A DNA stretch of 59,648 bases, filler included, from Streblomastix strix (Eukaryota), in assembly GCA_008636045.1 (NCBI GenBank). It is 3 parts of 3 records of this genome, joined end to end, with 100 filler letters (N's around TTAATTAATTAA, not from the genome) between each part and the next. Parts side by side here need not be neighbours in the genome. Positions count along the whole stretch, not along the records: positions 1 to 19,825 come from SNRW01000482.1; 2 more parts are not named here. One strand, written 5' to 3'. The stretch's first letter is position 1, and every line of letters starts with the position of its first letter. The notes under the pieces are model-generated. The model had not been told where the DNA came from and searched no databases. It worked only from the letters and a program-made list of their open reading frames with translations. The position numbers were made by a program, and so were the translations under genes. Shown one piece after another: positions 1,721-31,700 of the stretch.

Positions 1721-2189
1721 CAAATTTATTAGTTTTTAAGTTGTTTAAATTACTAAAATTTTTTAAAATATGAAGTGGAGCTTTAATATTAAACATACTT
1801 TATGTGAGTTTATTGTCACAATAGAATTGTTTCGTCTTGTGCAGAAAGCGATTACTTTTGTTAATATTACTTCTGCGTCTTTCTTCATCATTTCATCTAT
1901 TGTTAATCTTTCAATATCTAACAAACCCTATAATAATTTTTGGGAGTAAAAATCTCTCTTAACTATATTAAATCTTTATCATTTGAATAGTAAGTTGACT
2001 CCATCTTCAGAGAATCCTCTCATCTTCATACATCTCATTAGTAAGTCTCTCCCAACATCTGCGACAGGTCCAGAAGGAAGGAGCCCACATTACCTAGAAA
2101 AAGGTTTTGATCCTCGTCTTTCATTCTCTGTTCCATCTCCAGAATCCTCTATTTTAATCCAAGGAAAAGGAATTTAATGGATTAATTCT

Positions 2190-2420
2190 TTAGTTTGTGT
2201 TCCAAGATTTGTTCGGCCAAATCGGTGCTATTATTATTCCCTATGCTTTGTCTTATTTCATTTTCTGTAATACTCTATTTAATACTGGTATTGGTGCATG
2301 GATATATAGTTTGACTTCGCTCCATTTATAATTAAACGCGTTATGGAAACGTGTCCCCAGATCGTTGGGATCTATCATTATATAGATATTAATTAGTTTT
2401 TATGTATCATCTATATTATT
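2190..2420 (-). pseudogene. DIRS N6-adenine methyltransferase-like domain
   Basis: NAFNYKW...LYIHAPIP(degenerate N/HPP motif)...VLQKMKQDKAQGIIIAPIWP. Confidence 0.75.
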
Positions 2421-3865
2421 CATTACTTCTATGTGTAATTTCCGATCTGCGTAGTCTGGGCAATGAATCTATTATGGAATTCCTTTTCCTTTGGAAGTTG
2501 ATTATTATTTTCTGTAAATATGGTATCTTTATTAGGTAGAATACTTGTTTTATCCTTTCTTACAGGTATTCTCGCGCTTTCCAATTATTAGTATCATAAA
2601 TTGCAGTAGAATTTTCTGAATGTATCAAGATTGCCTTATCTTTAATCTTATATATGATTCTGTTAAAATGGACAAAAATATATTGAAAAGCACTTATTTA
2701 GTACGCTTTACTCGGTTATTCTATTTTATGTCTCGTTCGAACACTCATATTATATTAATTCCGATAGGTTATCGTACATCGTTGTTGGTCCCCTGCACTA
2801 TTATGATGCATTGGTTGTCAGTATACATGTGAATGCTTTTTTTTTACTAACTATTCCGGTTGATAATATCATATTATCTTTATCTATTATTTCAATTTTC
2901 GAAATAACTTTTTTAATAATTAAAATATATTCATACAATAATTTTATTTTTAACGCATTTATCTTTTCTTTATCCAAGACTTCTAGGAATAAAGAAGCTT
3001 CTCTGTTTTTGGGTCTTATGATATTAAGTCTACCTATTTCTACTGTTAGATATCTTATCGTTACATTTCTATTCACATATATTAGAATACATTAGTTCCT
3101 CTGCACCTTTATCATTTTTGCTTCCTTTCTTCTTGTTTCATAATATTCTTTTTTCTAAAGTTCCATGTCGATCTCAATAATTTTTTTAATTATTTTGGTT
3201 CAATTTCACATTTCTCAATAGATATTGTCCATCCAAACTGTTTCAAAGTTCTCTTTGTTTTTTTATGTTTATTTTTTCAGTATTTATTTGTCTTGATAAA
3301 TAAATCGAATATAGTTGTAATTGTTCAAAATCTATATTTATAAGTGTTTTCTGATATATTTCAGAATCGATTTTATCGAAACTGCGTAGAAGTTTGGGCA
3401 GTGTTTAGTCCTGAATTGCTTAACTTTATATGGGAAGTTATTATTGTTGAAGTTGAATGCTTGATAATATGTTTAGTTAGGAGAAACTGTGGTGTGGTGA
3501 ATGCTGAATTTAAGTAGAGAGTGGTTGTACAATCCATTTGATTAGCTCTAGAATATTGATCAATGATGTTTCAATGGCTATCCTAAAATCTTTCAGCTTT
3601 GCATTTATTGACAAAGAAGTTCATATATGAGATCGTTCATCGTATTGGAATACTATTTCATTAATTAAAGAAGGAAATATAAGTTGGCAATAAATGATTA
3701 TGAAAAATTATTCATTTTTAAACAATTATTTCTAATAAAATTCATGTAATAGATTTTTGAATACGAATTTATTTAACTTTATTATATTCGTTAAGCAAAT
3801 ATAATACATAATAAAAATAAATGACTTAAAAGTATATAGAAGGTTGTTCCATGTTGATAAACTTT

Positions 3866-6419
3866 TCATTCTTCAAATGAATCAAATTCGCTATCTTCAT
3901 TCGAACAAGATTCATTTTCTTAATTCGACTCAAATTCATTTTCTTCATCCGAATCGAATTCATTCTATTTTTCTTAAGATTGCTCTTTCTTCTCTGAAAT
4001 CGATATTTAATCCAATTTCTTTATTATTTCCATCTCTTCAATATCTTTCTTGCAATGTGGGCATTTCAATCCACGATCTTTCCACATATAAGAACATCCA
4101 AGATGGAAATTGTGACCGCATTTCATCAGAACAAGTTTATTATCTTCCCCATTTTTGTTTTTGTGGCACAACGCACATGAATGAGCTAATGGAATAATAA
4201 CATTCTTTTCAATTCCATCTTCTTTAATTGTATGCTCCTAAGAATCAAATATTTGTTTCGTGTGTATGATCAACCGATTAAATTCTGCCATTCCAGCTTC
4301 TTATTCATCATATGTTGTATACTAATCTCCTGCTTTTCTCCAGGGTAATCGAGTTACTTATCCCCCAGTCTTCTGGAAATCAATACAATATATGCAGTTA
4401 TTGAACCCTGGTTTAATAGGCTTTATTGATGTGTAACATTACGGGCATTACGCTTAACTCAATTAGAGATCGAAATCTCCAAAATGTGCGTTGAATATAA
4501 CCATGTGACCATGAGCTGGACATCCTTAATTTTCACATAAGCCTAATTTAAAATATGATAAAAAAAAATAATAAATAATAAAATTTTGTTAATCAATCGA
4601 ATAACTAAACTATTTTCTATATTATTGTTCAAATACCTTCAATGCACAATCCATGCGAGGCAACTCTCCACTAAGGACCAGATTTTGACCATTGTCTCTT
4701 CACGATCGCATCCGTCTTCCCAACATCAACAAAACTCATTGGCATTCCACCTCCGCGAAGACGAAGCACCAAATGAAGCGTTGCCTCTTTAAAAATGCCG
4801 TAATCAAACAAAGTTTTCCCACTCTCAAGATCTTTACCAGAAAAAATCAGCCGCTGCTGGTCAGGTTCAGTTCCTTCTTTTTACTGGATCTTCTTCTTCA
4901 CATTATCAATGGTCTCATTGTTCATTACTTCGAGGGCGATTGTTTTCCCTATTAATGTCTTTACAAATATTTGCATAGAAACACCAAATTATATCAGCAA
5001 AACTGAACCTTTCTCTGGAAACCCACAATCTTGAAGTGTTAAACTGTCATTCAAAGGTTTATATGAATCAGATAAAATGCTTATTGCTTTTGGAAGGTCT
5101 TTTGCTGCTTCCATAACTTTTGCTTTCATTTCCTTTACGGTCATCTTCCTTCTGACATCTACATCAAATGTATATGATGAGAGAGTATTAACTTTTAATT
5201 TGAAGGGGAAATCTTCATTCTTGTCAAAGATACTCAAGATCATACCATTGGAGACATTTTTCTGGCAAATTTTAACATTTTCAATCTATTCAATGCATTC
5301 TCCATAATGTGAAGTTGTTTCCCATCCATAAATTTCCAGATCATTTTATTGCCCTTAGAATCTTGCTTCATCTAAAATGATCTGTTTCAATTGCTTCACC
5401 GGAATTTGAGTATATATCTATTTCAAATCATATGTTTTTCCTTAGAAAACAATGTTTATATCGATAGAAGCATATTCCAGGGTAACAATTTCATCTCCCA
5501 CAATCCAATAATCTGAAATAGTCTTTTCATTCTGAAGTTCTTATTCTTCGCCATTTTCATCTTTCAACTTGAGAATCTGGCAAGAAGGATGAACGGTATC
5601 AAAACAATATATCTTCCATTTCAATGAGAGAATGGTATAGTCATCATCTATATAAACTTTCCTCTTATATTACTGAGTTTGTACGTAAATAGACATCGCA
5701 ACTTTATCAATGACCAGATTATTCAAATCATCACCATCAAATTCACTCAGAATCTTATTTGTATCCAATAAGACTCTATCTTTATGCATGAAATAACCAG
5801 ATGGATCAATTTGGGCTCTAAAACAAGCTCTCTCACAGATATCTTCAATTTTCTCATCATTCTAACAGGATATACGAATTAATTATCTGTTTGGCATACG
5901 AATATTCAGATTCGTTGGGCCAGTTTATAACTGAAGCTCGGACCATTCTTTTATTCCTATGTTTCTGACTTACTGATTATTTGAAATAACTTTGAAATTG
6001 AATAGCAATTTCTACTTTTCTACAGATATTTAACTTTTCAACAAGATTTTCTGTTTCAAGTCTAACACAGAATCGTTATTGTTGAATTGAACTTCTATGT
6101 ATTTATCTTAACTTGAGTCCAACCAAACCAATATAGAGCCTTTACTAATGCTTGCTTATACACAACAACTAAGCCCAGTGCTAAAGAATCCAGTTAAAAG
6201 TTCAACATGTTTTTCAGAATTATATCCCATCACTTCTTCTTGATTTGTTGTAAGTTCTATTATATTGCAATACTCAGAAATGATCGAAAGTTTTGCCATC
6301 CCTGCTCCAATATAGGATTAAATTTGCTGAGCTACTCCTAGCAGAGTTGTTTAAGAATCAACTACTTATCTCTGCATTTCTTACCCAGTGTGATCCCCAA
6401 CGAAGACTATACTTAACAT
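3866..6419 (-). CDS. Tandem ubiquitin-like-domain protein with near-canonical ubiquitin unit, Cys-rich domain, RING finger and acidic tail
   Basis: Open in table 6 from ATG 6419; several divergent UBL units, then [17 protein letters not shown]...[44 protein letters not shown] intron 4543-4636; RING CALC...[10 protein letters not shown]...KCPHC; TGA at 3866. An upstream exon cannot be excluded. Confidence 0.85.
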
Positions 6420-10310: not shown

Positions 10311-11084
10311 ATGGATAAATAATTAAGTGATTTAGATATTATTGATGAAGAAGAATAATCTATGTAATAAGAACAGGCAATTAAATTAATATAATTGTAG
10401 GAATAGTAATAAAAATACATAAATGATAGGAATAATTTATTTTAAATCATTGATTCAGAGATCATTAAGTACTTTAATTATTTGAGATAATTCTTTAAAA
10501 AAATCAAAGTTGATTTGACTAATTTTGTAACATTAAGTACTGATTAATTAATAACAGGAATCAAAACATTTTTATAACCAATCATTGCTAGTAAAATTGT
10601 TAAATAAGGTGGATCAAGTAACTAAATTCTATTAGCTAATGATGATACAATCGATAAAGATCAATTAGCCTATGAACCAATTGAGAATGCACGTTATTTT
10701 GCAATTGCATATGGAATGTATGAATAGCGAGTATGGAGATCATTAACAACATAAAATAGTAGAGTGTTTATTTCACTTCAAATAACTCGCTCAGATCCTA
10801 ATACAGTGTGGTAGTCAGGATATACTTTATTATCAATCGTTGATAGTACCATAAAACCAAAATTCAGTGGAACACCACATAACATACCATTAAATGCAGT
10901 TTTGTTTGCGTAAACAGTTATTGGTTATCCAATATGTTGGAATGGTGCTATTCCTATTGATTGTTACATTAATACTAATGGAAACGTTATAATAAATACA
11001 ATGTGTTAGCTAAGTTTGCCTGATTATTTTTGTGTATAAGTATGTGATTCATATGCAATTCATAATTAGTCGGCTAGTCAGTGA
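10311..11084 (+). CDS. Putative fibre/spike protein 1
   Basis: N-terminal coiled coil, tail-fibre-like motif FVTLSTDQLITGIKTF...KIVKQGGSSNQILLANDDT, beta-rich C-terminal head; open to TGA. Confidence 0.6.
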
Positions 11085-11273: not shown

Positions 11274-13217
11274 TCAAACAGCATTAATCGCACTACCAGC
11301 AAGCTCACCAATTACATCGATATTTAACACTTATGGATTAGGATTATTATCAAATGTAATTCGCATAAATGCATCGCATAGATAATGCATCATTGGAGTG
11401 ATGGATGCTTTAGTTGGATCAAGATAACTTCTCATAGCAATAAATTGGTTTAAATCATTTTAGTTCTATTCTTTATTTGAATCAGTATTATCTAATATTA
11501 CTTTAGTCAAATTACCATGTAAAATAACTTATATATTTGTTCTAGCACATAATTTTGAAGAATTATAGCCACGCATAAATGAATCAACAGTAGCAAATTT
11601 CCATGCAAGCATATATTTGTTAGGATATAGTGTTTTAGATGCTTTTGTCCCTACAAATAGTGTAGACGTATGAAATATATTCACATTGTCTTTCCCATAA
11701 AAGCCACCAGTTTTATCAGTGCAATAGAAATTTTCAAATGTAAGTGAATGATATAGATCTGATGGAGCACTAACAACATCTTAATCAACGATATAATCAA
11801 ACATTAGTCCATTAGCGGTTTGTGTCAGTGCTTCATATGGTGCAGGAATAACGTGTCGTTAATCACAAACTAAATCAAAATCATTAAGTAATATAGGATA
11901 AAACCAAGTTGGATACAATGACATGCCAAACGTCATGAATAGTGATTTAATATTAGAGAATGACATAATACTTTACATAGCTCCACTTGATTCAAAACCA
12001 CTAAATGGGAAATTTGATGATTAAAATCTAAATACTTAGGTAGGAAAATTAACTATTTTTTACTCTCTAATCATATTAATTATTGCATCTTCATTTTCAA
12101 CATTAAAGCTTATATTCTATATTTCTAATTTTTCAAATCGTGCATTATTAATTTAACTGATACTATTCTATGGTAATCTATCACATAATGCAGTATTTTA
12201 CATGTTGACTATTCGTACATTAAATTTCTTATATGCAAATACTGCTTAAGCAGTTGGTTCAGCTAATAGATATACTATGTCTAGTTTCTCAGGTGGAATC
12301 ATGTGATAAGCTTAGTGTTTATTTTTTACAGCATCAGTTTTATTGAGCCAAACTACTTTCAAATCTTATAGATAATCTTATATCCAGGGCTATAGATGAA
12401 GTTAAACATAATTCCGAGTAAGAACAGGAAATGAGTTAAAGATTGGATTTAATTAATTAAGATCAAGAACACCACTAAATGTGATATCAAATGGAATTTT
12501 AAAATACAAAGGAGTTGTAACTGATTATGTATCAATATCAGATAGATGAATTTCAATAAATATTCCACAATGACGTTTACCATTAATGATGCTTCCTAAT
12601 TGAGAAACACTAACGCTATTACTAGTGCATAAATCACTCAATGAATTAGAACTAATAGCAGCTTATTCTCTGGCATATATTGAAGTGCCCCATAATGCAG
12701 TGGCATCACGCATCAATTGAAATTGGTGAAATGGCTACCACGCAGTTGAGAATCCAAGCCAAAAACGTAATTGCTCAGATTTCTCTTCTCTTTCTGCTGT
12801 TTTACCATAATACTTTTATTCGGCTTATGTCATACTTTTTGCAACAAGAGCTTATGAATCTTCTAGTCCATTGAAGTTAATTCTCTTATTATATTCACCA
12901 TCTTCAAGATTTGTTTCATTTAATTATATCACTAATGTATTTCCAGGAATGGTAATTGTCCAATTTACTTAACATGTTTGTACCATTGTACAGGTGGCTA
13001 ATCCCCTTGCTCCTAGTGGTGCTCTAGTATATTTAACTCCACCAGATGTTAGTTCAGTTACTAGTTAATCGGTGAATTATTGCTCGGAAATTGAAAATGA
13101 TTCAGCATGAATCGTTAATGTTTTTAATATTTCACCTAATTACATATAACCAGCAACGTAATCAGAGTGTTACATTTTTTGCAAATGGGCTAAATAATCA
13201 CTAGATTTGAATGACAT
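11274..13217 (-). pseudogene. Putative major capsid protein (~650 aa), at least one frameshift
   Basis: MSFKSSDYLAHL...to ...IDVIGELAGSAINAV-TGA; beta-rich, well conserved in copy 2 (37005+), size and context fit a double jelly-roll MCP; the fold is inferred, not demonstrated. Confidence 0.6.
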
Positions 13218-13283: not shown

Positions 13284-13493
13284 ATGGTATTCTTCTCTGG
13301 AATTGCGAATTTTGGTTCGAAAATTTTAAGCGGTGTTAAGAAAGCAGCGCAATGGGTAGCACCAGCATTACATAAAGTTTTATCAACAATATCTGGCCCA
13401 GTTGGAATGATTCATCCTGCTATTGGTGGCGCATTAGGTGCAGGAGCTAATCTTGCTGGTGCTGTTGATCGACTAGCAAATAAGCGTAATTGA
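13284..13493 (+). CDS. Small amphipathic-helix protein, adenovirus pVI-like membrane-lytic candidate
   Basis: MVFFSGIANFGSKILSGVKKAAQWVAPALHKVLSTISGPVG...; intact, divergent from the MCP gene, homologue at 36963(-). Confidence 0.75.
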   Translation: MVFFSGIANFGSKILSGVKKAAQWVAPALHKVLSTISGPVGMIHPAIGGALGAGANLAGAVDRLANKRN

Positions 13494-13513: not shown

Positions 13514-15831
13514 ATGAACAGTTCATTATTGTAACAATAAATCCGAACAGTTAGATAGTTAATCACTAACGATATTGCTTACTATATTTAATATTCGAAA
13601 CGTGGTGGATCAAGTGGTGGAATGATGTCGAATGATGAATACCAATTATTCAAAAATAATAACAATGCATTAGTCTACGCTGCTAACAATTAAATCATTG
13701 ATGGAATTGCATCAGATTACGCATTAAAAATAGATACTCTGGGATTACTAATGATAAAGAATTTGAAAGTGACTAATTTTGATTTTGTCGCATAGATTAA
13801 TTAGTTGATTAATTAAGTGAATTTATTATAACAATCAATTGGAACAACAGAATAGGATATCACTGATATAAAAAATGATATTTATACAATTAATTAAGAA
13901 TTGTCACGATAAGCACGTTTCAGAGGATATTATTTATTGAATACAGATATATAAAATTTACCTAATTCCGCTAATGGATATTTTTCATTTAGTGCGGAAA
14001 GTGGAACAGTATGGATGTATGATGCAGATTGTTATAATAGTGGAGATATTGTACCTGATTAAATTACACCAGCAAGTGATGCAACTCCTCTATCTGATGG
14101 TACAGCAACTGCAGGAATTAGCACCGAATATTCACGTGGGGATCACATTCATCCCTAAAATGTAACAATTACTATTCCACCTAGTGATTCTGCTAGTGGA
14201 TCAGTTGGTTCAACTAATTATTATGCCAGAAACGATCATTCTCATCCTATCAATATAACAACTACCATATCACCTCAAGATAGTGTTAGTGGATCAATTG
14301 GAATAACTAATTATTATGCTAGAAACGATCATTCCTATCCAATTAATGCAGAAACTAATGCTTCAAATATTCCTATCGTTAATGGTGTTGGTGCTAATGG
14401 AACATCAGCTTTTACGCTAGACATGATCATGTTCATCCATAGCAATTGACATATGATGGTAATGTTACGGAAACTAAGTTCATTAAGACAGGTGAAACTG
14501 CTTCAGAAGTGCTATGTGCCAATGGTGACACAACTACAATAGATAGTAAGTTATTTCGTACATATACAAGTAGTGGATGGATTAGATTATGTGTATTTCC
14601 TGCTTGTGATGGTATTGGTAATCCATTCATTGAATTTAAAATATATACATCTTATAATGCTGTTCAAATCATTAGACTATAGCCTTATTATACCGTCAAT
14701 GGAATCAATACTGTATATAGAGTATTTATGGCTCCAACTAGAGTTACTTCATAATATGTGATTGAAAATGGAGCACGTTCACCATTTCATAATCATTCTG
14801 GCTCTGGCACATCAGCTGTATATTAAGCAAATATTCAATTAGAATCGGTTGGTTCTATTACGATAGTTGTATCTGATAAATGTACTTATTTTACCAATAG
14901 AATCACGGAGATATTAACGTAAGATGTGGTTACAGGAGTATCAAGTGGAACAGTAATACCTATCAATTATAACTACGGATATGGTGGGTTTATGTAAAAT
15001 ACTTTATAAGTTAATCCAACAGATCGAACAAAATCCAGCTATAATAATGGTATTAGAATCGGAAATTTTAGTAATGAATCAACAACATATTTAGCCTGTA
15101 GTAATACAACAATTAATACTGTACAAGCAGGTCAATGGGAAATAAGTAAAATAAGTGATAATGCACTTACTATAAACCCATCATCTCTACGAAAAGCTGA
15201 TCATAGTGTTGGTTTAAGTATTAACGGTGATAGTTCAATAATAAAATTTAATGGTAATGAGTTAGTGAATGTCGGAACTGATTAAATAATTAATGGAAGA
15301 AAGACATTCAAAAATGACTAGTTTGAGGTATAACTAACAGATTCAAATTATCCATTATTAGTATTTAATAATAATAACCATTATTTGGAGTAAATGGTAA
15401 ATGGTAATGAATTGATATTGACTATTGATACTAGTTTACAAGTTGGTACTCCATTATATATTAATTGGCGGGGGAATACTTTAAGTACATAATACCCTGA
15501 TTCTAAATTAGTCACTAATTATGTTTTAAATGCAGGTTTATCTACTTCGTTTGCTGGTGTTACTTGTGGTGCAGTTTAAATTAATCCAAATTGAAACAAT
15601 TTTAATGAAGGATTAAGAATATCACGTTCTACCGTTAGTAATTATAGTGGAATTTATCTAGGGTGTAATCCAAGTTAAACTAGTGGAGCATTAATAGATT
15701 AGTGGAGTATAATAAATGCACCTACTGACGAATTAAGAATTGGAGTTGGAGATTAACTTCTTAATGATAATTTAGGTTTAATAATATCCGCTGATGGAAA
15801 TACATTATCATTCAATAAACGAACATTATGA
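13514..15831 (+). pseudogene. Long fibre protein 2 with phage-tail-fibre-like HxH repeats
   Basis: Coiled-coil N-terminus; repeats YSRGDHIHP, YARNDHSHP, YARNDHSYP, RHDHVHP; KFIKTGETASEVLCANGD; TDQIINGRKTF; ends GLIISADGNTLSFNKRTL; frameshift near 14412 and internal TGA near 15592. Confidence 0.7.
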
Positions 15832-16912: not shown

Positions 16913-17927
16913 ATGACACTGCAAGAATTATAAGATATAACATTTACGAACTAGGATCCATTGAATGAATATAAAACTACGCCAATAACGAAGAATTCGT
17001 TGTTTCTTATTAATGAAAATCATTATATTGTAGGAGCTGTTGGAAGTGGTAAAACAACATTAATGTGTAAGCTAATTGTGATAAATAAAAAAAATCATTA
17101 ATCCATACATATTATACTTCTCGAATTATGGTGCAGATGAAACTATGGCATTAAATCTTAATAGTAAGAACATTTAACTAACTAATGTAACTTATGGAGA
17201 AGCAATGATATTTCTACCTGAATTTGATGAGATAAAATACCGTTCTAAAGAGATGTATACATGGTACAAAATGAATGAACAAAAATAATCTTATACAAGT
17301 GATTTCATTAAGCGAATGGAAGAATAGATATTATAGATTAATGAGATAAAAAAGAATGAAAAACCTAATGATTATCTTAATTGAATTGCTGAACTATTCA
17401 AATAAAAACTAATCGAGACCATTAATACATATAGTTAACCAACCAAGATATTGAGATTTGATATTCCAGCACTAATTCAAAACGTCAGTTATTAAAATAA
17501 ATTCAAAATAGTTGATGAGGATTAAGTTGACATAAAAATAATTAAAATACCTATTTTAAAAAAAGCTTAATTACTCCATACACTAATGCTCTTCGATAAT
17601 AAAGGATCTAATGCAGACATTTAACGATTCAATTCATAACTCTTTAAACAATAACACTTCTCGTTAGTGATTCTCGTCATTCAAAAATTCTATTTTCTTT
17701 ATTGTTTACCGTCCATTTTATTTGTTTATGATAGCAGGGATATTAACCTATGTAATTTGCTTAGGCGATAATATTGGTGAAACAGATCTAAGATAAGTGT
17801 ACGATGAAAATACCATATAAAATTTAGATTTTTATGAGTTCCAATTATTATACAACACATTAAAGAAATATGAGTTCATCATACTCAATAAATGGATGGG
17901 AAAATTAGAGATTCTCAAAAATAAATG
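16913..17927 (+). pseudogene. A32/FtsK-HerA-type genome packaging ATPase
   Basis: Walker A YIVGAVGSGKTTLM (~17024-17065), Walker B-like TLMLFDN, SRH motif; frameshifts. Confidence 0.85.
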
Positions 17928-17932
17928 AACAT

Positions 17933-19825
17933 TCACACAAATGAATAGTCCTTGGCAGTTAATCAATACATATATGGGCAACAACTCTAATTGGAAAGTA
18001 CGATTGCTTTAGTATATATACCAGTGATTCTATTTTTTTCGATAGAAAACTGACTCATCTAATGATTCTTCTATCCTAATCTCATATTAGTGCATTTCGT
18101 TATCTTTCCTTCATTAATGCAATCGACTATATAATCTTTAGTGATTTTGTTAGTCTTCTAATTAACTCCTTTCAATTTTATTTTTGAATCATCGCAATAA
18201 TTTTTGAATATGATATAATTTTTAGGAGCTAATGCTATCATTGATGGTCCTTATCGTTCGATTGCTAATGCAAGGATTTTCTTCTCATAATAAACGTCTG
18301 ATTTAATTGTAGGGAAGAAGTATTTATCATTATCGTTATAAAAATCTCTATCATTAATGACAGCATTAAAATACTAAGTAAAATCTTCAATAGGATTACC
18401 ACTAATTGCCTAATAAGCTGAATCAGAATCTCCTTCAATAAAATGTATCCGATTCATATCTAAGCATTTATATATATGAAGTTATATATGAAGTTTAGAT
18501 ACCAATATTTAGCATTATCTAATACAAAGAATGAAACTTATAAAGGAGTTTTACAACTGCAAAGCTCAGGATTCATTTATACAATATAACTGTTTTCAGA
18601 TATCTTTTGTTCATCCATGAAGGCATAAGATCTAATTGCTATTTCTGTTTACTTTCTATTCATTATTTTAACTTTATGATATTTCTCTGTATTCATTCCA
18701 TCACTACCATATGAGCTATTCATAACTATCTTAAGTAATTATTCTTATCCTTTATTCTCATCTAATTTTGCTTCAATTCTGTTCTTAGTAAATTCCTTAA
18801 TAAATGAATTGAATTAATCATGTTTATTGAACAGAACCATATGCTTTACATAATCTATAATAAAATGACAATCATCAATTAAGAACCATAAATAATATGA
18901 GCTAAATGCCATGAATTCTCCCATCGTTGATGATAGATTAGTTAACTTTCTTTATTTTTGGTCAGTCTTAATCGTAATATCTTTCATATGTTTATACAAA
19001 TAACTGTCGATATTTCTTTCATCAGTTGTGAATTCGTAATTCCTTAGAATAGGTGGGAAGTTAATGAAATCGTTAATGTATTTGTCTTAAATATGACTTT
19101 TGACTTCTGCAATAAATAATCTTCCTTCTTATATAAATCTCCTATTGCTATTAATTATTCGTAGTATAGTTTATTTTGAATGGTCAATATTACCCTCAAT
19201 CTTTCCTGTTTATGATACACACATATACATTTTACCACCAATGCATTTAATAAATTTATTTGGCTCTGATGACATAACACTAGTATATAAAGAATTAAAA
19301 TCAACACCAACTACATGAGTTATTCGATAATCAGTTGTTAAAACAGTAACATATTTATTTATTTTGTCATATTAGATTCGTTTTATCAAATCAATTCCTG
19401 ATACATTTACTCTATGCGTTACATTTGATAATCCACCTGTGATGCGTTTCCTAATTAAATGATATACATCAATATCAGTAAGATTAATTGGTAAACATCT
19501 AATCATACAATATTTACGTAATTATACGAATAATTTACCTATATTTATGTCTTTGTTTGAACAAAAGCAATTACAATATAAATAACGTGGTCGAACGTTA
19601 TCTTTTGAATGACCCTTTGAATTGTCGATTCTATCAAATGTCGGTTTATTAGCAAAAGTGAGTTTACATTCGCAAATGTTGCAATTAAAATCTGTGAATA
19701 ATTATTTGAAATATTCCAAATCACTATCTTTTACATTTTTTGTTTTTTCTCTTCTTTATTGTTTATCTTAGGCTTAATATCGCCTCACTTTACTCTACCA
19801 ATATTTCTCTGTTAAATAAAATTTC
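17933..19825 (-). CDS. polB: Protein-primed family B DNA polymerase (C-terminal part; 5' end beyond contig; premature stop near end)
   Basis: ITGGLSNV; motif A VGVDFNSLYTS; motif B KIVMNSSYG; motif C FIEGDSDS; IALAPKNY; KLKGV. Confidence 0.92.
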
Positions 19826-19925
19826 NNNNNNNNNNNNNNNNNNNNNNNNNNNNNNNNNNNNNNNNNNNNTTAATTAATTAANNNNNNNNNNNNNNNNNNN
19901 NNNNNNNNNNNNNNNNNNNNNNNNN
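19826..19925. other. Artificial contig linker
   Basis: N-run, TTAATTAATTAA, N-run; 100 bp. Confidence 0.98.
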
Positions 19926-19926
19926 T

Positions 19927-20348
19927 AGTTTTCCGTCAAGCACAGCCTTGCATACACGTGTCATCAACGTCCGAAAATTGTTGGTAGCTTAATTTTTCAC
20001 ACCTGTTTGCATTGTTAAATTAGAGCTTTTTTTTTCCTCTAATAATGAAAATTTAAGATAATATAAAGTCATAAAATGTATTTAGAATTAATTATATTCA
20101 CAAAAATTCATAAGGATGTGTTATAAATTTCTGTTGGAGCAGAAAACTATAAAAAGTTTATAAATGCATTTTTCATGTGCTACGGAAAGTTTTTTACTAT
20201 AGGCTTTTTGTATAATTACAAAATAAGTTTTAATTGGTATTTGAAAATGAATTTATGTGTAAATCTAATTTCGTCGAACTAGTCAGGTCGCTATGGTACT
20301 TATGAAAAATAAAACCAACTTATTTTGTTGTTTCACATAAATAATTAG
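19927..20348 (+). repeat. Left terminal inverted repeat (~420 bp)
   Basis: AGTTTTCCGTCAAGCACAGCCTTGCATACACGTGTC... is the reverse complement of 39314-39737 with scattered mismatches. Confidence 0.92.
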
Positions 20349-20969
20349 TTATTTTATTATGATTAAAATGAAAAGTCCAACTATTCCAGAAGTAAAACCA
20401 TAATTCGAAAAGGAAATTGAAGTGTTTGCAGCTGTAGTTTCAGTTGCATCTTAAAATAATCCATTTAAATAACCATTTCAGGTGTAGGTTATTAGATGTG
20501 AAACGCCAACATTGTCAGCAAGGCGCGGAAGTTCAATACTAATTATTTTATTTCTTATTCAATAAGCTATTTCATACTTAATTCCTATTTCAACCATAAA
20601 TTTACTTAAAATTGACCTAAATCATCATTTTCTTGAATGTATTACTGATTACGCCGTGATTCAAATTATTAGTATTGTTTTACAGAACAATTTTAGCTTC
20701 GAGTTTCGAGCCTCAAGATTATTCCATTTTTACCAGATTTTTATTTTTTTTATTATTTTCTAATTTTTGTTTTATCGTATTTATACCTCTAGCCACATTT
20801 TTAATTTACATTTCTACTAATTTTCACTAATTTTATAATTTCGTTTTTCATTTTTAATAATTATTTTCGATACCATTTGCAGTATTATTTTATCGATTAG
20901 TTTTCACATTATTTATCATAAAATTACTTGATTTTATTACTTATCATCATCTTCATTATAATTCTCTTC

Positions 20970-22250
20970 TAAATGAGTATATTAAGATCTTTAAACTACG
21001 GATGTCATATTATAACAAACAAAAGAAAGGTTCAAGAGGAAGATAGGCAAATAAATTGATATGTTAAGAAGGATGTTTGGGAACACTTTTACAAGATACA
21101 ATAATCATAACAAAGCAAGAAAGACATAAAACAGGAGAAGCTTCAGTTTCAATCCAAGAGGAAGGATTAATCGCGAGTTTAAGTCAAATAGCTTCAAATC
21201 CAATATTTAATTGAATCGTACTGATGAAAAAAATAAAAAGCATTTTCTTCTAGGCGTGTTACTCGAAGTTCGGCTAGAGGTGACAGAGAACAGGACCTAT
21301 TCAAGTAGATTACTTCAAAGAAATAGTTCACTGATGATGCAACATAGTAAGTTATTGATGGAAGGCAAAGCACCTGGAGCCTGCACCGACGGGTAATCGG
21401 AGAATTAGAAGAATTTTAAACTTATTCAGGAAAATAATGGGAAGATTGAAATTCTATAAAAGTTCCAATAACTGTAAAATCAAACTTCATTATATAATTG
21501 ATCTCAGTTCATGCTAAAAATGCAAATTCCAATGCTTATTGAACCGCAGTTGGGATGATCTTCAGATTATAAGATTTTAAAGAAGATAGATTAAATGGAT
21601 TTATAATATAGTAGATTATGATAAAACCTCTTGCAATTGCTAGGAAGAAAAGAAAGGAAGAAACAATATATAAGTTAGATATCCTTCAAAAGTATATATA
21701 AGAAAAAGCTGATGGTTTGCAAAACATGAGTGAATAAGAATACTTATGACGCACAATATCTGCAATTCTTGCGTTCTCTACTCTACGATTGGCTGATATT
21801 CATCGTGCTTCAGTAATCATGAAGGATGATAATGTTTGTTAATTAAATGCATCAAAATGGAAAGGTGATAATTATGAACAAAATGTAACATTTAGTCCTC
21901 AATATTATTCCAAAGTTTACCCTACAGCATGGTTTTGCAATTGGATCGTTTTAAAAAGAGAGGAAAATTTTGGTAAATCACTTTGGTGGCGACCAAGTAA
22001 TAAGAAAATTTTTTCATATAAATATCCACCTAATGCAGTGTATATAGTCAAGTTACCATCTGGAGTAAGGAAAGAGAATTTAATAACTTCCATCCGCATA
22101 TCACCAATCACTAAGAACATTGATTTAGGAGCCACAATATATATATTATAAAAGAGTACTTGATATAAAGATGGAACTAGTACCGTCGCCGTTCTTTATA
22201 GCATGAATTTAAATGTTACAATAACATAGTGATTGACATTTTTTAAATGA
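20970..22250 (+). pseudogene. Second DIRS-like element remnant (tyrosine recombinase)
   Basis: ILAFSTLRLADIHRA...KWKG...VYPTAWF...LWWRP...ITSIRISPITK...TVAVLYSMNL. Confidence 0.75.
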
Positions 22251-22877
22251 TGATCAATTATCACAATAAACAGATAGTTAAGATTAAGTGAATGTTAGAT
22301 AATCTCATAACAATATGGAGACGTTATCGTAGCTATCCACGTATCTGGAATCCTACCTTTTTCCCTTTTAATGAACTTAATCCTCTTTCAATATCTATCT
22401 ATTTACAAAGAGTCTAGTTTACCTCATCCTTATGAGTGTTTTCATTTGAAGTACTAATATTTGATTTATTCATTCTATTTATTTTATATCTGACTAAGGG
22501 CGCATCACACTTTTATTTTGTCATATTTTATTTTCTATTATTTTTTTCTCTTACATCAGCTTATTTAACTCATCAATGGTGGCTCAACAAATTTTAAATT
22601 TCATATATTAACTTTTTATATTGAATATTATCCTTTAACTAGTCTATGCTTAAACGCTTTGACTTGAAAAATTATTTATAGCAATTTTTAGTTTTTACGT
22701 TTAAAGCAATTTTTAAATTGATTTTATTTATTTAATATTATGTTAATCATTTCGTGAATATTTTGGGTTTCGTTGACTGGACCCATTGCCATTGGTTACT
22801 TGCTCTCACAATAAAAAGGTAGTATTCCAGATACGTTGATAGCTACGAATCTTTTATTACAAATAATATTAAAATTA

Positions 22878-23010
22878 AATAATAAAAACTCTCTTAGGAA
22901 AGACAAATTAAATAATAAAAACTCTCTTAGGAAAGACAAATAAAATTATAAAAACTCTCTTAGGAAATACAAATTAAACAATAAAAACTCTCTTAGGAAA
23001 GACAAATTAA
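22878..23010 (+). repeat. Tandem repeat, 4 x 33 bp
   Basis: Unit AATAATAAAAACTCTCTTAGGAAAGACAAATTA, head-to-tail, no spacers. Confidence 0.9.
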
Positions 23011-23213
23011 GTAATATATGCCTCTTATAATATAATTTAAATGAAAATTTGATTTAAATTAACATGAAGAGAAGAGAAAATAAAAGAAAAAGTAAAAATG
23101 GATAAAAATGATAAAGAAAAATTTAATAATTAGTGAAAAAACTTAAAAATTAATAAAATAATAATAATAGAAAATGAAAGATTATATGGATCAAGCTCTT
23201 TTTACTCTAGTTT

Positions 23214-24730
23214 TCATTTCATTCTTGTGTTACTTTTTGTATTTTTTGATTATTCGTTTGAATGATCTATTATTTCATTTTATTTTCAAAGAGGGTTTAT
23301 TAATTTCAATAAATTTATCTATCAGCAAATATTAGCGTTTCCTCTTCTCTTGCTGTTTCAATTAGAAAATTATTATTTGCAAAATAATTCTCTAAAAAAT
23401 GAAATTAAGAAAATTCTTCATTATAAAATTACAATAATTAATCCTATTCCTAATCATGATGTATTAATTCATTTTTATCTGGAGATTATTCTTCAATTTA
23501 ATCATTTGGTTAATGTTAATGATATCCTCTATTGTTTTAATTTAATCTTCTCCTATTTCGATTTTATATTCTAGCATTATATACGAAATAACTTCTCTCA
23601 TCATCAACATTAATATTATAGTTTTGATTTTTATTATTATTATTCAAATAATTATAGTTTGTATTGTTTATTCGATTACTTATCCTCTGAGAAACAATAT
23701 TTTCATCATCATCATCATCATCATCATCAACACAAAACACAGCACAGCAACTGCACATCCTTTTAAGACAGTTCACAATCATCCATATAAACGATACTAA
23801 GTAGAACAAGGCAACTGGAATGAACGGCATCAGAATAATTTAAATTGGTGTTAGGTTAGTCTCTTAAGGTTTTGTAAGTGTTACTATTGAAACATTTCTG
23901 AAGTCGTAAAAACATTGGAAAAGTTCATGAGTTAATTAAGATGAACTACAACTGTTTATTAGCGGTGATTAATTTGAGGAATTTTCATTAATAGAAGTTT
24001 TTTATTATAATTAAGAAGGTAATTATGAAAATGTGCTTTAAGAAGATTAGTTTAATTAATCTCTTGTAGGCCAATTTGTGTATTTTCGAGAATAAGGTGT
24101 GCAATGCCCTTTACTAAATATTTTTTAAAAATTAAATGAAAAAATAACAAAAAATAATAAAAATAATTTGTAATTTGTTAATTATACCTAAGTTCAATTA
24201 TTTCAGCATAATACTTCTGCATTTAATTTTATTGCTGTGATTCATTTGTGTTCTTAAAAATATGAAAGCAAACATAAACTGAAAATTTATGTACACAAAA
24301 ACCACGAGATGAATCTGGAATTGAAAAATAAGAAATAACTAAAATGAAAAAATAATAATATTAATTTTGAAATACCACTAAATGGAAAAGGAAGTGTGTA
24401 GTTCTAATATTTAACGAGTTGACATTTAGAAGTAATAAAATCAAATCTAAGTAAATAATAGAAAATATTTAAATTGAAAAAAAAATAAATTTATGTACCT
24501 TAAATGCTACTGATAATTCTAAAATGAAATAATACTATTGACATAAAGTTGTAATGTGCATAAAACTGTATTGCAAATGAATAAGTAAATTTATAAATAT
24601 TGCAAATAAAATAAAATAAACCAATAAGGTGCAATGATACAAAGCATAAAGCCTTCTGAACCTTCGTTTGAGCATCTGGGCGTCGACCCAACCAGCATAT
24701 TGAAAGAACTTTATGTATATCTCTAAACAT
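23214..24730 (-). CDS. Intron-containing host-type membrane protein (two hydrophobic segments flanking a Cys-containing loop; acidic/Asn-rich tail)
   Basis: TM1 ALCFVSLHLIG...; exons DSSRGFCVHKFSVYVCFH, SKGHCTPYSR...FQCFYD; TM2 IILMPFIPVALFYLVSFIWMIV followed by CSCC and poly-D; exon structure approximate. Confidence 0.6.
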
Positions 24731-25451
24731 CACAACTTTTCAGGGGAAAAAATAATAAAATAATATATAATGTTAAAAATATTTTGTTTGCAATATCTTT
24801 ATTTAAATTAAAACTATATTTAGTAAGATAAGACCAATAAACGTCATTAAGAAATCAAATTAATAAAAAATGAATTTATTTAGCGTTAACATTTGTAAAT
24901 ATATGCTAATTTATAATTAAAAAATCAACAATTTAATTTTATTCTATAATTGATGTAAAATTCTATATATCGAACAATCATATTTGGTAATTCATGAATT
25001 TAATTTTAAAGATGTTTTTTATATTGATTTTTTAGTTAAAAGCAAAATTTTTGATAAAAAAATTGAGTACTTAATGGACTATGTTGTTTATTTAAGCATA
25101 AAAATAGTTTATATAGGTGGAGTGGTAAAAAAAACATTAAAAACAGAATTTTATAATAAATCAATAAAGTTAATCAATATAAAGATTTATTATTATTTAT
25201 AGGGCATATTTAATATGCGTCATTAGTATAAATATAAATAATGGAATTTTAAGGTATAAAAAGTCTTAAATTGATGAGATAATTGATATCGAACCAAAAT
25301 TTGAATAATGAGATAATTTATTACTCATATATATCCATGCTATTAATTAAATTTGTATTAATTAAAATTATTATACAAACTGAGTTAAAAATAACTATCC
25401 TAATAAGATCATTATGACTTTTATATATATGCTGTTAAATCCGTTTTAATT

Positions 25452-26115
25452 ATGGCTGATGCTTTGAAAAACAACGTTAGAATTATGAATCAATTATATA
25501 TTTCCGCAGATATTTAATTAATGAATCAATAATTGTTTGGGACACAAAGTTATATAGAGAGGTTAACTCCCAATCAAAAAAAAATAGAAATGGGTTTAGA
25601 TTAAGTAGATAAATTAGATTGAACGACATTAATAGAAAACTTTGCGACCAATCATTTAGTTAAATCGTAGCAAAGTAATTTTTATCTAATAATGACAATA
25701 CTAAAAATTAAATATTCCACTTAGATAATGATCTCGAGAATGATTCAGTTGATAAATTGTTATAGGTAGACTAATTTGATTATATTAGATACAACACAAA
25801 CAAGTATTATCAAAAAAAAACTAAAGACGAAATGAAAGATAAAAAATTAACTGATTTATTTATGTGTATGAATAGATTATTAGACAATTATGTTGTAGAT
25901 GAAGCATAAAATGTGTGGTTTAATAATCTTGATAGTAATAAGTATATGTTGCTAAAAATTAATGATAATGGGAAAGAAAACTTCTATATTAACGTTTCAT
26001 ATCAAGATATGATTGAATTTAAAATATATATTGAAATTTTAATGATAGAATTAAAGAATTAAAAATAATATTTTTAATAAATATTAATCCAATCCAAAAA
26101 ATTTATATTCTGATA
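25452..26115 (+). pseudogene. Decayed intronless hypothetical ORF
   Basis: MADALKNNVRIMNQLY... with internal TGA and frameshift. Confidence 0.35.
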
Positions 26116-26330
26116 TAAGGTGAAACATACCATGGGTTAAAATTAGATAGAATTTTTATTGATGAAAAGTCAGTAGTATTTATGCCGCCAACATAATTGG
26201 TACTTAAATTGATGTAAATTAGCTCACTGAACAACCATCCATATTTTTGAAAAATAAAACTGAGGTCTAAAATGACTTTTCTCTAACTCTATAATACATT
26301 TATTTATTTTAATTTTTTTTTAAAGAATAA

Positions 26331-27173
26331 AAATAATCAACTGCAAGGAATTTTGACCAAATTAAGTTCGAAGTAACTTCTAACGGTATCACGATCGTCG
26401 TACGAACCACTGACGAGTGGGTCAATGCGAGGATGATGGTGATATTGTTAAAGAATAGTGTTGAAAATAAATTAATGGACTTTTTTAAATCAAACAGCTG
26501 GATTGAGTTCTAAAACTACTTCAAATAGACGATATAAAATAGGTCCCCCGAAAATTCGTGGGACGAATTTTACGAGTAAAGTAACACATATCCAAACGAC
26601 TTAGTGAAATGGTACGCACATCCAAAATTAGTTAATTTTATCGCTATCTGGGCTAATCCTAAGTACGCTTTTATAATCAGCGAGATCATGGACTAAATTA
26701 ATAATAGTTCACTAGCTTAACATATTACTTATAAAAAATAAACAAAAAGAATGATAGAAAGATTAAATAATGAAATGATGAAATAATTAGCGATAGCTGA
26801 TTACTTAGCAAATGATCTTGAATAATTTACTCCATGAACAATATATGGTTTATAAAAATAAGCGTACATATTAGTCTTAAATTTATGCGATGTTGAAGCA
26901 AATCCATTCACTTTTGAGATGAGACATTTATGTAAAAATAAAATGAGAGAAAGAAAATATAATTAATTAAGGGATCAATCAATAAGAATCTACGATAATT
27001 TGCCTGCTACAGTCACGTCATATCACGAGATATAATTAGCATTAATAGTTAACTATGAATAAATTAGATTCAGTTATAATAAATTTACATTATCAACCGA
27101 TAAATAAATATAAGAACTACTAAACGAAGTACCTTAAGTAATTGCACAACAAATTGAATTGATGCACGAATGA
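26331..27173 (+). pseudogene. KilA-N/APSES DNA-binding domain protein
   Basis: NGITIVVRTTDEWVNARMM...DFFKSNSWIEF...WYAHPKLVNFIAIWANPKYAFIISEIMD; no clear ATG, one internal TGA. Confidence 0.85.
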
Positions 27174-27194
27174 TAAAATTATTTTTCCTCACAA

Positions 27195-28540
27195 ATGGCC
27201 ACATAAGGTATGAATGTATTGTCCACATCAACCAAAAAGGAGTTCGTTTAGTTGGAAACTACTTTTGCATAATTATATAACTAATTTTAAGCAAATGGTA
27301 TTTATAATGTACCAATTAATTTAATATATTATTTAAACAAAGATTATATTGAAATAACCCCAAATATTAGATCTACCGAATATTAGTAAGTTATGGAATA
27401 AGAATAATTACTGAATAATTTATTTAAATTAACAGCTATAGATTAACTTCCACAAATCAGAATTATGATGAATACGCATATTAATAACCATTATGTTAAT
27501 CATGAAGGGCGCTAGAGATATAAATTTAATCTATAAATTATTGTTCTAAAGAATAATTAATTTAATTAATTTACAGATAACTATAAATAATTTTTCAGAT
27601 AGGATGATAAAACCAACGGTTGGCCAATATGTTATAATTCAGTGGTAAACGAGTACACACAAAAATAATTAAATTTATATTCCCTGAACTAAAATATAGG
27701 TGAGAATTTATGTTTTTGTGCTAATATTTATATTAATTTACGCTTAGATTTAATTCTTTAACATTATTGGATATATAACCAATAATTATAGATTGCTTAA
27801 CGGGCGGTCAGGATAAATAAATTATATTTCCCTATGACAAATAATTATATAACTGATGTTGAACCTCATAAATACGACGAAAATAAATCCATAACGGTTA
27901 AATATAATTTCGGAATCTAATTTGAAATTAACAGAGATTCTATTTTACAAGCTGTAACATAGCCAATTAATGTATAAGAACCAAATTTATATTATTTTAT
28001 AAATTAAATTTATACATTTCCAGTTAGAATTATATTTTCCCTACTTGCTTTTTCTGCTAATGAGTGGGACTATATTTATATTAGTTAATAACGCCCTAAT
28101 GATTACGGTTAATTTGTACTGAAAGTTTTAGAATAGTTATATTGGGATAAATCAGAACTAACAAATATTTTAGAAATAGTAGAATTTAGTAACAATTTAC
28201 ATATCTAATTGACCAATAGTAATTAGCTATACGAGAACAACGATCGAGTAAAGTAAATGTAATTGGAAACGTGGTATTATAAAGTTAAATATTAAGCTCT
28301 GATTATCATTAAACATTACTTATATTTAGCCCTTTCATCGGTAATTTTATTGAATATTCAAAAATGTTAATTATAACTGTAAGTAATTAATAAAGAGGTA
28401 TAACGATGGAAGTTTTGGATAATAATTCATTTAATAATGTCGTATTCAAATAAAATTTAATTGGTGCTCCAGTAATATGGGGATAAAATAAGCTATCTCA
28501 CACAAATATTATTGAGTAGAATAAAGAAGTTATATTTAAA
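27195..28540 (+). pseudogene. Decayed ~450-aa ORF, possible minor capsid/penton
   Basis: MATQGMNVLSTS...; beta-rich aromatic composition, frameshifts; identity inferred from context only. Confidence 0.3.
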
Positions 28541-29034
28541 TTATATGATAATTTTGGTAGATAAGTACTAGTCTAATAAATGGATTAGTATAATAATTTG
28601 CTATTAGAAATATAGTATCAGAGAAACTGGCAGCAATAAAGTTACTACTAATGAAATTTGCGTAAAAATTTAACCTCCTAAAATTAGGCCCTGACTTTAT
28701 CGCTATAATTAGCCCAACAAATAATTTCCCAGAATTTTGAAAAATAAAACATTTGTGCAATCAACTTTTTCTCTGATCCAGAAAGTACTAACTTTATCAG
28801 CTGCATACTCGCTACCGAATTTGTCAGCGGCATAAATGTTAGTGTTTGAATTAATCATTCATTTATTTTTATTCTCAAATTCTTGAATTAGCTTTATAGT
28901 TGCCTATAGGCTATCTTCTTTAGCTATTTCCATTATTTCTTTTAATTATTCCATTCGTATTCTCCTATTAAATTATCGAAGTAAGAATAGCAATTTAATC
29001 TCAAGGTCTGATTTAGTAGTTTAACTTACGGGTA

Positions 29035-30300: not shown

Positions 30301-30659
30301 ATTTTAAGATTAATTTTAAGATCTACTTATATATTTTTCGAGAATAGATATAACACTGTTAATGTCTTCTTACTTAATTATATATTTATTAAGTATCTTA
30401 GATATATCTAATAGTTTCGCCGTTATATCTTTTCTGAATTATTTAATCTTATCTCTTTAACACTATTTAAATAATTATCTCTATTCTTTAGCTCGCTATT
30501 TAGCTTCTTCAGTAGTAAAATATTTCTTAAACTTACCCTTAATTTTAGTTGGCATATTATCTTTAACTGTTTCATTAATTATTTCGTTAATTTTCTACAT
30601 TGTTTGGTTTAAAAATAAAAAGTTCAAAAATTTTTTTGTATTTATCTTATAATTAATCA

Positions 30660-31678: not shown

Positions 31679-31700
31679 ATTTGTGAGGAAAATAATTTTA

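What the first reader, a model, noticed from the sequence alone, without database searches (positions are those of the whole stretch)
13514..15831. Phage-like long tail fibre with His-x-His repeats in a eukaryotic virus-like element
Seen: four repeats ending YxRxDH(I/S/V)(H/Y)P, plus TDQxIxGxKTF and FIKTG...LCANG motifs and internally repeated C-terminal modules (YNNGIRI / FNEGLRI; GQWEI / DQWSI). Established: HxH motifs coordinate metal in trimeric phage fibres such as T4 gp37. Inference: a metal-stabilised trimeric receptor-binding fibre, perhaps acquired from bacteriophages in the same habitat.
Basis: partly seen in the sequence, partly recalled or inferred. Interest (0 to 1): 0.7.

Follow-up and report, generated by a model that had tools for sequence, protein, structure and literature searches.

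The report
Phage-type histidine-cage fibre, termite-protist virus
This is a broken copy of a gene from a virus-like element integrated many times in a termite-gut protist; intact copies likely encode a three-stranded attachment fibre whose histidine repeats, shared with bacteriophage fibre proteins, are predicted to cage metal ions, and whose tip domains differ between copies.

Summary
Observation confirmed, with a correction: the gene reads only under code 6 (TAA/TAG = Gln) and this copy is broken (frameshift at ~14,410, in-frame TGA at 15,592, one repeat histidine lost). It lies beside a major-capsid, ATPase and protein-primed polymerase gene set of a Polinton-like element. All named relatives are Streblomastix strix proteins (best 120 of 307 hits). 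The 31-33-residue YxRxDHxHP repeat keeps both histidines at 440 of 464 sites and recurs in tandem in phage tail and head fibre proteins, yet matched no Pfam, PHROG or PDB entry. An intact paralogue's shaft is predicted to be a homotrimer (ipSAE 0.50, controls 0.00), with all four repeats in register between chains. The following beta-sandwich resembles tailspike C-terminal domains (Z 9-11) and is exchanged among copies with near-identical shafts. Metal binding is inferred, not shown. The repeat is not detectably homologous to the T4 gp37 needle, and no donor phage could be resolved. Phage-like fibres in Polinton-like viruses are already described, so this is a new variant: an uncatalogued His-cage shaft. 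Boldest open reading: the fibre binds the protist's bacterial coat.

The parts
13514..15831 (+). Fibre gene, whole extent (code 6), broken into three pieces
   Evidence: colinear with unbroken public paralogue P0001, 778 aa
13514..13777 (+). N-terminal region, presumed capsid anchor (inferred)
   Evidence: median 90% identity in the 26 of 70 paralogues that cover it; only a weak hint of kinship to the fibre-like gene of related virus L150 (E 0.011; not found by HMM)
13778..13912 (+). Coiled-coil helix, about 44 residues
   Evidence: helix 89-132 in the AF2 model of P0001; heptad pattern
13919..14056 (+). Small alpha/beta neck domain (FRGYY...W)
   Evidence: pLDDT about 76-86 for residues 141-180
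14057..14439 (+). Shaft of four 31-33-residue repeats ending YxRxDHxHP; repeat 3 has HxY; frameshift before repeat 4's motif
   Evidence: trimer prediction; phage relatives
14410..14413 (+). Frameshift
   Evidence: contigs of other copies differ by a one-base indel here in 3 of 3 runs (17, 2 and 3 contigs)
14476..14526 (+). KFIKTG...LCANG knob, shared with phage tail fibres
   Evidence: hhalign to phage fibre L003: probability 89, E 2e-6, 32 columns; L003 matches PHROG tail fibres and Peptidase_S74
14539..14967 (+). Beta-sandwich domain resembling C-terminal domains of tailspikes; variable among copies
   Evidence: VIA Z 9.0, rmsd 3.3, 122 aligned to WceF 6tgf; Z 6.6 Fri1 tailspike; Z 10.9 from the P0001 model
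15004..15309 (+). Beta-sheet module 1 (QVNP...NGIRI...GQWEI) plus TDQxIxGxKTF linker
   Evidence: Z about 5 to phage spike and baseplate beta-sheets (weak)
15574..15828 (+). Beta-sheet module 2 (QINP...EGLRI...DQWSI), cut by in-frame TGA at 15592-15594
   Evidence: (30% identity to module 1)
11274..13217 (-). Major capsid protein gene, unbroken
   Evidence: 189 relatives, several labelled 'Major capsid protein' by UniRef; no Pfam or PHROG match
13284..13493 (+). 69-aa protein with amphipathic N-terminal helix (adenovirus protein VI-like; the resemblance is recalled)
   Evidence: hydrophobic moment reached by 40 of 2000 shuffles; counterparts at 36841-36963 and in L150/L151; no PDB match
10311..11084 (+). 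Second, shorter fibre-like gene with TDQxIxGxKTF and KxIKxGG...LAND motifs, no His repeats
16913..17919 (+). Packaging-type ATPase, frameshifted
   Evidence: tblastn with the second element's ATPase and with L150's ATPase
17634..19506 (-). Protein-primed family B DNA polymerase, in pieces, near the contig end
   Evidence: PF03175 E 3e-9; PHROG DNA polymerase

Best explanation
The stretch is a broken copy of a gene of a Polinton-like virus element of the oxymonad Streblomastix strix; intact copies likely encode a virion attachment fibre that is predicted to be a homotrimer. Shown: gene context, breaks, repeat conservation, the same repeat in phage structural proteins, and different distal domains behind near-identical shafts. 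Predicted: three chains wind together through the four repeats in register. Inferred: each repeat gives two histidines per chain, six per level, which would cage one Fe or Zn ion as in pyocin and T4 fibres (about four ions per fibre), registering and stiffening the shaft. The N-terminus and coiled coil would anchor it to the capsid, and the beta-sandwich and beta-sheet modules would bind surface glycans. Exchange of the distal part would change receptor range, as in phage fibres. The shaft was likely taken from a phage, because the repeat is widespread in phages and bacterial genomes and a related standard-code virus has a fibre-like gene without it. Odds: fibre 0.85, trimer 0.8, metal cage 0.65, phage origin of the shaft 0.75.
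For: Context: MCP, ATPase, pPolB nearby; at least 16 of 127 listed fibre paralogues have an MCP gene within two locus tags on a same-length contig (read by eye; the MCP list shows only 120 of 189). His columns are His in 68-70 of 70 aligned rows while the shaft is 75% identical at the median. Trimer: ipSAE 0.50 against best control 0.00, runs agree in at least 89% of contacts, pLDDT at least 78; the mark was reached by 21 of 30 solved one-chain pairs and 0 of 23 single chains (eukaryotes: 17 of 29 and 0 of 30). Among the lowest-error contacts are residues 207, 238, 269 and 302 with themselves, the same position of each repeat. As a monomer the repeats are unstructured. Phage kin: 19 of 24 IMG/VR loci from a tandem-motif scan carry the repeat, 2-9 units each; 13 of 15 distinct ones have a tail or virion annotation on the protein or a neighbour; 1805 clusters at E<=1e-3. 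Fold: named top BFVD hits are mostly phage tail fibres; the seven best VIA rows are tailspike, fibre, baseplate or tailspike-like chains. Swapping: of 449 pairs with shafts >=90% identical, 31 have distal domains >=80% identical. His6 octahedral iron site from three HxH copies: PMC6116203 (passages).
Against: No metal position was reported by the complex job and the ion chosen (Zn) was my choice; the job's calibration had no ligand and did not use my alignment. 27 of 122 other shaft columns are as conserved as the histidines, so His conservation alone is not special. Only one VIA match exceeds Z 8, and it is a bacterial enzyme with a tailspike-like fold; BFVD TM-scores for the whole model are <=0.18. 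No penton gene was identified in this element, so attachment to the capsid is by analogy only. 14 of 21 distal clusters are singletons, probably damaged gene models, which inflates the swapping count. The tree of three-repeat stretches is mostly unresolved and S. strix rows form two groups. Folding used a public gene model (P0001), not this broken copy.
Confidence: 0.75

Rival explanations
1. Trimeric fibre, but the histidines do not bind metal. They pack or hydrogen-bond with the conserved Arg/Asp of the motif, or act as a pH switch that loosens the fibre in an acidic vacuole.
For: Arg, Asp, Tyr and Gly of the motif are as conserved as His; the lowest-error axial contacts are the small residue after Tyr, not the histidines; a His-to-Tyr change recurs at the second His (11 of 464 sites).
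Against: HxH in register on three chains is the known signature of His6 metal sites (PMC6116203); both histidines are kept across phages of many hosts; the His-to-Tyr cases may be decayed copies such as this one.
Confidence: 0.2
2. The fibre binds the bacterial ectosymbionts that coat the protist (or gut bacteria that it takes up) rather than the protist surface, so the virus reaches its host by hitchhiking.
For: Distal domain resembles tailspike domains; Streblomastix cells carry numerous filamentous ectosymbionts (PMC2717939, passages); a virophage gp37-like tail bound Synechococcus cells in an LPS-dependent ELISA (PMC12724248, section 27); several distal types would suit several symbiont species.
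Against: No ligand evidence here; phage-like fibres are common in Polinton-like viruses of hosts without such coats (PMC12220804); a shared fold shows no function.
Confidence: 0.2
3. The element no longer forms particles; fibre genes are inert passengers of a transposon-like element, and the distal diversity reflects decay and gene-model errors.
For: This copy has a frameshift, a stop and a lost histidine; its pPolB and ATPase are broken; the second element in the window has almost lost the gene (40-aa trace).
Against: Several distal types have 4-57 members with long unbroken frames; the MCP here is unbroken; one MCP cluster has 29 members at 90% identity, which points to recent spread. It concerns present activity, not what the protein is.
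Confidence: 0.25
4. The contig is a bacteriophage or symbiont prophage with recoded stops, not a eukaryotic virus.
For: The assembly comes from a cell with many bacteria (PMC10120064 calls it a metagenome-assembled genome); the fibre parts are phage-like.
Against: Both TAA and TAG are read as Gln, as in the host; the same contig carries a eukaryotic poly-ubiquitin-like gene; no terminase, portal or tail gene was found among the ORFs scanned, and pPolB plus Polinton-type MCP are present; PMC10120064 reports S. strix viral elements using the host code.
Confidence: 0.03

Closest known systems
Phage-like fibres of Polinton-like viruses (PMC12220804, section 13 part 1 of 2 and passages read; PMC8502044, passages)
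   Same: Modular fibre in an element with MCP, ATPase and pPolB; phage-derived modules; presumed homotrimer for attachment.
   Different: The listed building blocks there (Peptidase_S74, laminin G, collagen, PTR PF12789, BppL_N, avian adenovirus fibre) were not found here by Pfam; a His-repeat shaft is not mentioned in the passages read.
HxH metal sites of T4 gp37/gp12 and R1/R2 pyocin fibres (PMC6116203, passages); Alteromonas phage R22Y fibre (PMC11705849, passages)
   Same: HxH motifs in a trimeric fibre; pyocin and R22Y have them in the shaft or N-terminal part, followed by a receptor-binding domain.
   Different: No sequence match to these structures; the unit here is a 31-33-residue tandem repeat with a YxRxD lead-in; it is in a virus of a eukaryote; metal not measured.
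Uncatalogued phage repeat (PxxDGTAxxGxSxxYSRxDHxHP) in tail and head fibre proteins
   Same: Same motif and similar period; up to 33 units per protein.
   Different: No Pfam, PHROG or PDB model matched it; here it is mostly four units inside a Polinton-type fibre.
DSLV2 virophage gp37-like tail proteins (PMC12724248; abstract, passages, section 27)
   Same: Phage-related fibre in a small eukaryotic DNA virus, proposed transfer from phages.
   Different: Three genes and a heterotrimer with a PF07484 collar there; one gene and a predicted homotrimer here; bacterial binding tested there, untested here.
S. strix endogenous viral elements, 'Metamonada' MCP group (PMC10120064, passages)
   Same: Same host, same genetic code, MCP-bearing elements.
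   Different: The main text has no occurrence of 'fiber' or 'tail'; supplements 1 and 3 have none either; supplement 2 (spreadsheet) was not read.

Membership tests
Polinton-like virus fibre | Encoded in an element with major capsid protein, packaging ATPase and replicase | tested here: met
   the MCP label rests on UniRef names of paralogues
Polinton-like virus fibre | Modular protein with phage-fibre-like domains | tested here: met
Polinton-like virus fibre | Homotrimer | tested here: met
   By prediction only: ipSAE 0.50 against best control 0.00 for the shaft of P0001
Polinton-like virus fibre | Attached to the penton or capsid of particles | not testable with these tools
   No penton gene identified in this element; needs particles
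Polinton-like virus fibre | C-terminal Peptidase_S74 chaperone (common, but reported absent from parabasalid elements) | tested here: not met
   No Pfam match in the window pieces or 7 paralogues; not required for the class
Polinton / Maverick element | Terminal inverted repeats and integrase | tested here: inconclusive
   This element is cut by the contig end; the sister element on the next contig has inverted ends of about 430 bp; no integrase among 23 ORFs scanned, no dedicated search
T4 gp37-type HxH needle | Sequence homology to gp37/gp12 metal-binding regions | tested here: not met
   No PDB chain at E<=10 with a repeat profile; only an unrelated coiled coil with P0001
T4 gp37-type HxH needle | HxH motifs in the distal receptor-binding tip | tested here: not met
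   Motifs lie at residues about 206-309 of 778, before the variable domains
HxH metal-cage trimeric fibres (mechanistic class) | HxH from three chains in register | tested here: inconclusive
   All four repeats lie in the predicted interface and in register, but side-chain geometry was not reported
HxH metal-cage trimeric fibres (mechanistic class) | Bound Fe or Zn in His6 coordination | not testable with these tools
   Ligand rode along but is not scored or placed in the output
Phage RxDHxHP fibre repeat (uncatalogued) | Motif and tandem period shared with phage virion proteins | tested here: met
   Profile from 340 S. strix units finds phage proteins at E down to 5e-45

The most novel reading that the evidence does not exclude
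A eukaryotic virus took a metal-caged phage fibre shaft and keeps a cassette of exchangeable, tailspike-derived tips that bind the bacterial ectosymbionts sheathing Streblomastix: it finds its protist host by recognising the host's bacteria, and the protist genome archives the tip repertoire in over a hundred copies.
Probability: 0.15. Interest if true: 0.8.

Novelty: new variant of a known kind. Interest (0 to 1): 0.47.

Why it matters
It adds an uncatalogued building block (a tandem His-x-His fibre repeat, 1805 clusters at 50% identity, no Pfam, PHROG or PDB match) shared by phages and a virus of a eukaryote, and gives a small, well-predicted trimer to test metal caging. The many integrated copies record tip exchange on a fixed shaft. 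Because the host is coated in bacteria, the intact tips make a clear test of whether such viruses bind the protist or its symbionts. The general fact that Polinton-like viruses carry phage-like fibres is known, and this copy is broken, which caps the score.

Tried and rejected
Standard code: no ORF over 139 aa in the window. The long inverted repeats at 19.8/39.8 kb first looked like an element inserted into this one; they include N-linkers between separate contigs. No whole genome is held. Single-sequence tblastn against INPHARED gave one weak hit for the repeats (E 6e-3) and none for the distal part. A repeat-only IMG/VR protein scan found nothing; motif scans did. ESM Atlas on the repeat region: best rows were Preaxostyla clusters, phage fibre clusters only at 0.75-0.77, a lead only. 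A resemblance of the neck domain to a domain of phage protein L001 failed (E 4.1). Kinship of the N-terminus to the L150 fibre is unproven. An S. strix-specific DNA pattern found 0 loci in JGI metagenomes. Scans for genomes of the closest phage-like relatives gave 0 and 1 loci. The tree (62 rows, 95 columns, quick method; 5 non-Streblomastix proteins and 7 of 20 S. strix-type proteins lacked three consecutive repeats and were left out) named no donor, and the one-clade test did not finish. No RNA holder listed. Read depth along the gene was not used, since all runs are contigs. Foldseek against PDB gave only WceF (E 7e-4) above noise; no VIA match covered the repeats, which are low-confidence in the monomer model. 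Literature: searches found no description of this fibre or repeat; most subscription papers are not covered, and the S. strix genome paper was not held.

Full report
Setting. Under the standard code the window has almost no ORFs; with TAA/TAG read as Gln it has long ones. It consists of three contigs joined by N-linkers at 19826-19925 and 39739-39838. The finding is on the first contig (1-19825). Every named relative of the gene is a Streblomastix strix protein (20 of 20; the best 120 of 307). PMC10120064 (passages) reports endogenous viral elements in this termite-gut oxymonad that use the host's code.

The element. Next to the gene lie an unbroken 647-aa ORF (11274-13217, minus) whose paralogues are in several cases labelled 'Major capsid protein' by UniRef, a 69-aa ORF with an amphipathic N-terminus (13284-13493), a frameshifted ATPase (about 16913-17919) and pieces of a protein-primed polymerase (PF03175, E 3e-9). 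At least 16 of 127 listed fibre paralogues have an MCP gene within two locus tags on a same-length contig (by eye). This is a Polinton-like element. I did not find its penton or integrase.

Observation. The copy is broken by a frameshift at about 14410-14413 and an in-frame TGA at 15592, and repeat 3 has lost its second histidine. Contigs of other copies differ from the window by a one-base indel at the frameshift in all three runs laid. Unbroken public paralogues such as P0001 (778 aa) are colinear with the three pieces and were used for folding.

The repeat. In 127 stored paralogues, 440 of 464 YxRxD-anchored sites continue H-x-H, and 85 proteins have four units, spaced mostly 31 or 33 residues. 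In a 71-row alignment the eight His columns are His in 68-70 of 70 non-gap rows; other shaft columns average 0.77, although 27 of 122 are as conserved as the histidines. The sample was partly selected with the repeat region. Neither Pfam, PHROGs nor PDB matched the protein or the repeat.

Phage relatives. A scan of IMG/VR for two motifs in tandem gave 24 loci; a profile built from 340 S. strix units found the repeat in 19 of them, 2-9 units each, E down to 5e-45. Of 15 distinct loci, 13 have a tail or virion annotation on the protein or a neighbour: after baseplate or tail genes (L012, L013, L018, L025), with fibre domains (L015 Gp53-like_C, L023 Mtd_N, L024 fibritin plus S74) or near a major head gene (L021, L024). 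A phage record with a single unit has it in a PF03406 tail-fibre protein after baseplate genes. A full HMMER search gave 1805 clusters at E<=1e-3. Of the 140 new proteins listed, 50 were at least 60% identical to named S. strix proteins, about 15 more look like diverged S. strix copies, and the rest carry up to 33 units; several match PHROG tail-fibre families outside the repeat. Eight of 120 bacterial loci from a GTDB motif scan carry it, in at least five phyla among the six named ones. The FIKTG...LxANG knob also matches a phage tail fibre.

Structure. As a monomer, P0001 gives a 44-residue helix, a small neck domain, an unstructured repeat region (183-328), a beta-sandwich and two beta-sheet modules. 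Three copies of residues 134-348 with four Zn passed the complex test: ipSAE 0.49-0.51, best of three controls 0.00, pLDDT 78-80, at least 89% contact agreement. The mark was reached by 21 of 30 solved one-chain pairs and 0 of 23 single chains; on eukaryotic proteins by 17 of 29 and 0 of 30, but by only 1 of 7 without an older solved relative; the calibration held no ligand. No solved relative was found here by sequence, so a pass from memory is less likely but not excluded. Low-error self-contacts at 207, 238, 269 and 302 are the same position of each repeat, so the repeats are predicted in register. The output does not place the metal. That three HxH copies form an octahedral iron site is established for pyocin fibres and T4 gp37 (PMC6116203, passages); applying it here is inference. 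[quoted passage not shown] Named top BFVD hits are mostly phage tail fibres, with low whole-chain TM-scores.

Exchange of distal parts. The 135 residues after the knob fall into 21 clusters at 55% identity among 115 paralogues; seven have 3-57 members and 14 are singletons that may be damaged gene models. Of 449 pairs with shafts at least 90% identical, 31 have distal parts at least 80% identical, 50 are 55-80%, 56 under 55%, and 312 give no long alignment. Median identity to P0001 is 0.89 in the knob and 0.48 in the sandwich region. This is the fixed-shaft, variable-tip pattern of phage fibres.

Origin. A metagenomic relative in the standard code (L150; MCP 26% identical, same small amphipathic gene and ATPase) has a 542-aa fibre-like gene with four xQTIxGxKTF-like units and no HxH. 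So the TDQ-type linker may be older in this virus group and the His shaft a later gain, on one comparison. The tree of three-repeat stretches puts S. strix rows among phage-type proteins, nearest to two unnamed proteins with tail-fibre matches (support 87), but it is mostly unresolved. Direction phage-to-virus rests on distribution; the donor and its habitat are unknown.

Comparison and verdict. Phage-like fibres are described for Polinton-like viruses (PMC12220804; PMC8502044), and a virophage tail related to gp37 binds cyanobacterial LPS (PMC12724248). The present protein works like these and like HxH fibres, but is not a gp37 homologue by sequence. I found no description of this repeat or fibre in the searches made; one supplement of PMC10120064 was not read. 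Two earlier AI notes on other genomes describe similar mosaic or broken fibres; I did not test them. Verdict: real feature, broken copy, new variant of a known kind, interest 0.47. The open and testable question is whether the tips bind the protist or the ectosymbionts that cover it (PMC2717939, passages).

Noticed in passing
window 19826-19925 and 39739-39838: N44-TTAATTAATTAA-N44 linkers: the window is three separate contigs of about 19.8 kb, so neighbours across these points are not real.
   Followed up: yes
window 19926-39738: A second, more decayed Polinton-like element filling a whole contig, with inverted ends of about 430 bp, MCP (50% identical to the first), ATPase, small amphipathic gene and a KilA-N gene (26433-26837); its His-repeat fibre gene is reduced to a 40-aa trace at 36700-36819.
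   Followed up: partly
window 13284-13493; 36841-36963; L150 3848-4057: 69-aa protein with an amphipathic N-terminal helix next to the MCP gene in all three elements; recalls adenovirus protein VI (from memory; no PDB or Pfam support beyond a weak Cecropin hit for L150). Several public gene models fuse it to the fibre, probably through a mispredicted intron.
   Followed up: partly
window 10311-11084: Second, shorter fibre-like gene on the other side of the MCP gene, sharing the TDQ and FIKxGG-type motifs but with a different C-terminal domain; the virus may carry two fibres.
   Followed up: partly
window 13610-13621: SSGG motif near the fibre N-terminus, conserved in paralogues; resembles adenoviral-protease cleavage sites (recalled); no protease gene was looked for.
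   Followed up: no
L150 1-13454, L151, L152: Standard-code relatives of the S. strix viruses in JGI metagenomes with MCP, amphipathic protein, ATPase, a 701-aa unknown gene (possible penton) and a fibre-like gene without histidine repeats.
   Followed up: partly
P0150, P0156, P0172, P0191, P0253: Unnamed proteins of 1100-2600 aa with 22-33 RxDHxH units and no Pfam match where scanned; they would hold dozens of metal ions per fibre if the cage model is right.
   Followed up: no
L001 7020-8978: Phage record with a reverse transcriptase gene and a preceding small gene near the tail module, suggestive of a diversity-generating retroelement; L028 also has a reverse transcriptase near its repeat-bearing fibre.
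   Followed up: no
window 4629-6419 and about 2000-3200: Host-type multi-ubiquitin-domain gene (PF00240, E 3e-41) and fragments that look like a decayed retroelement on the same contig as the virus.
   Followed up: no
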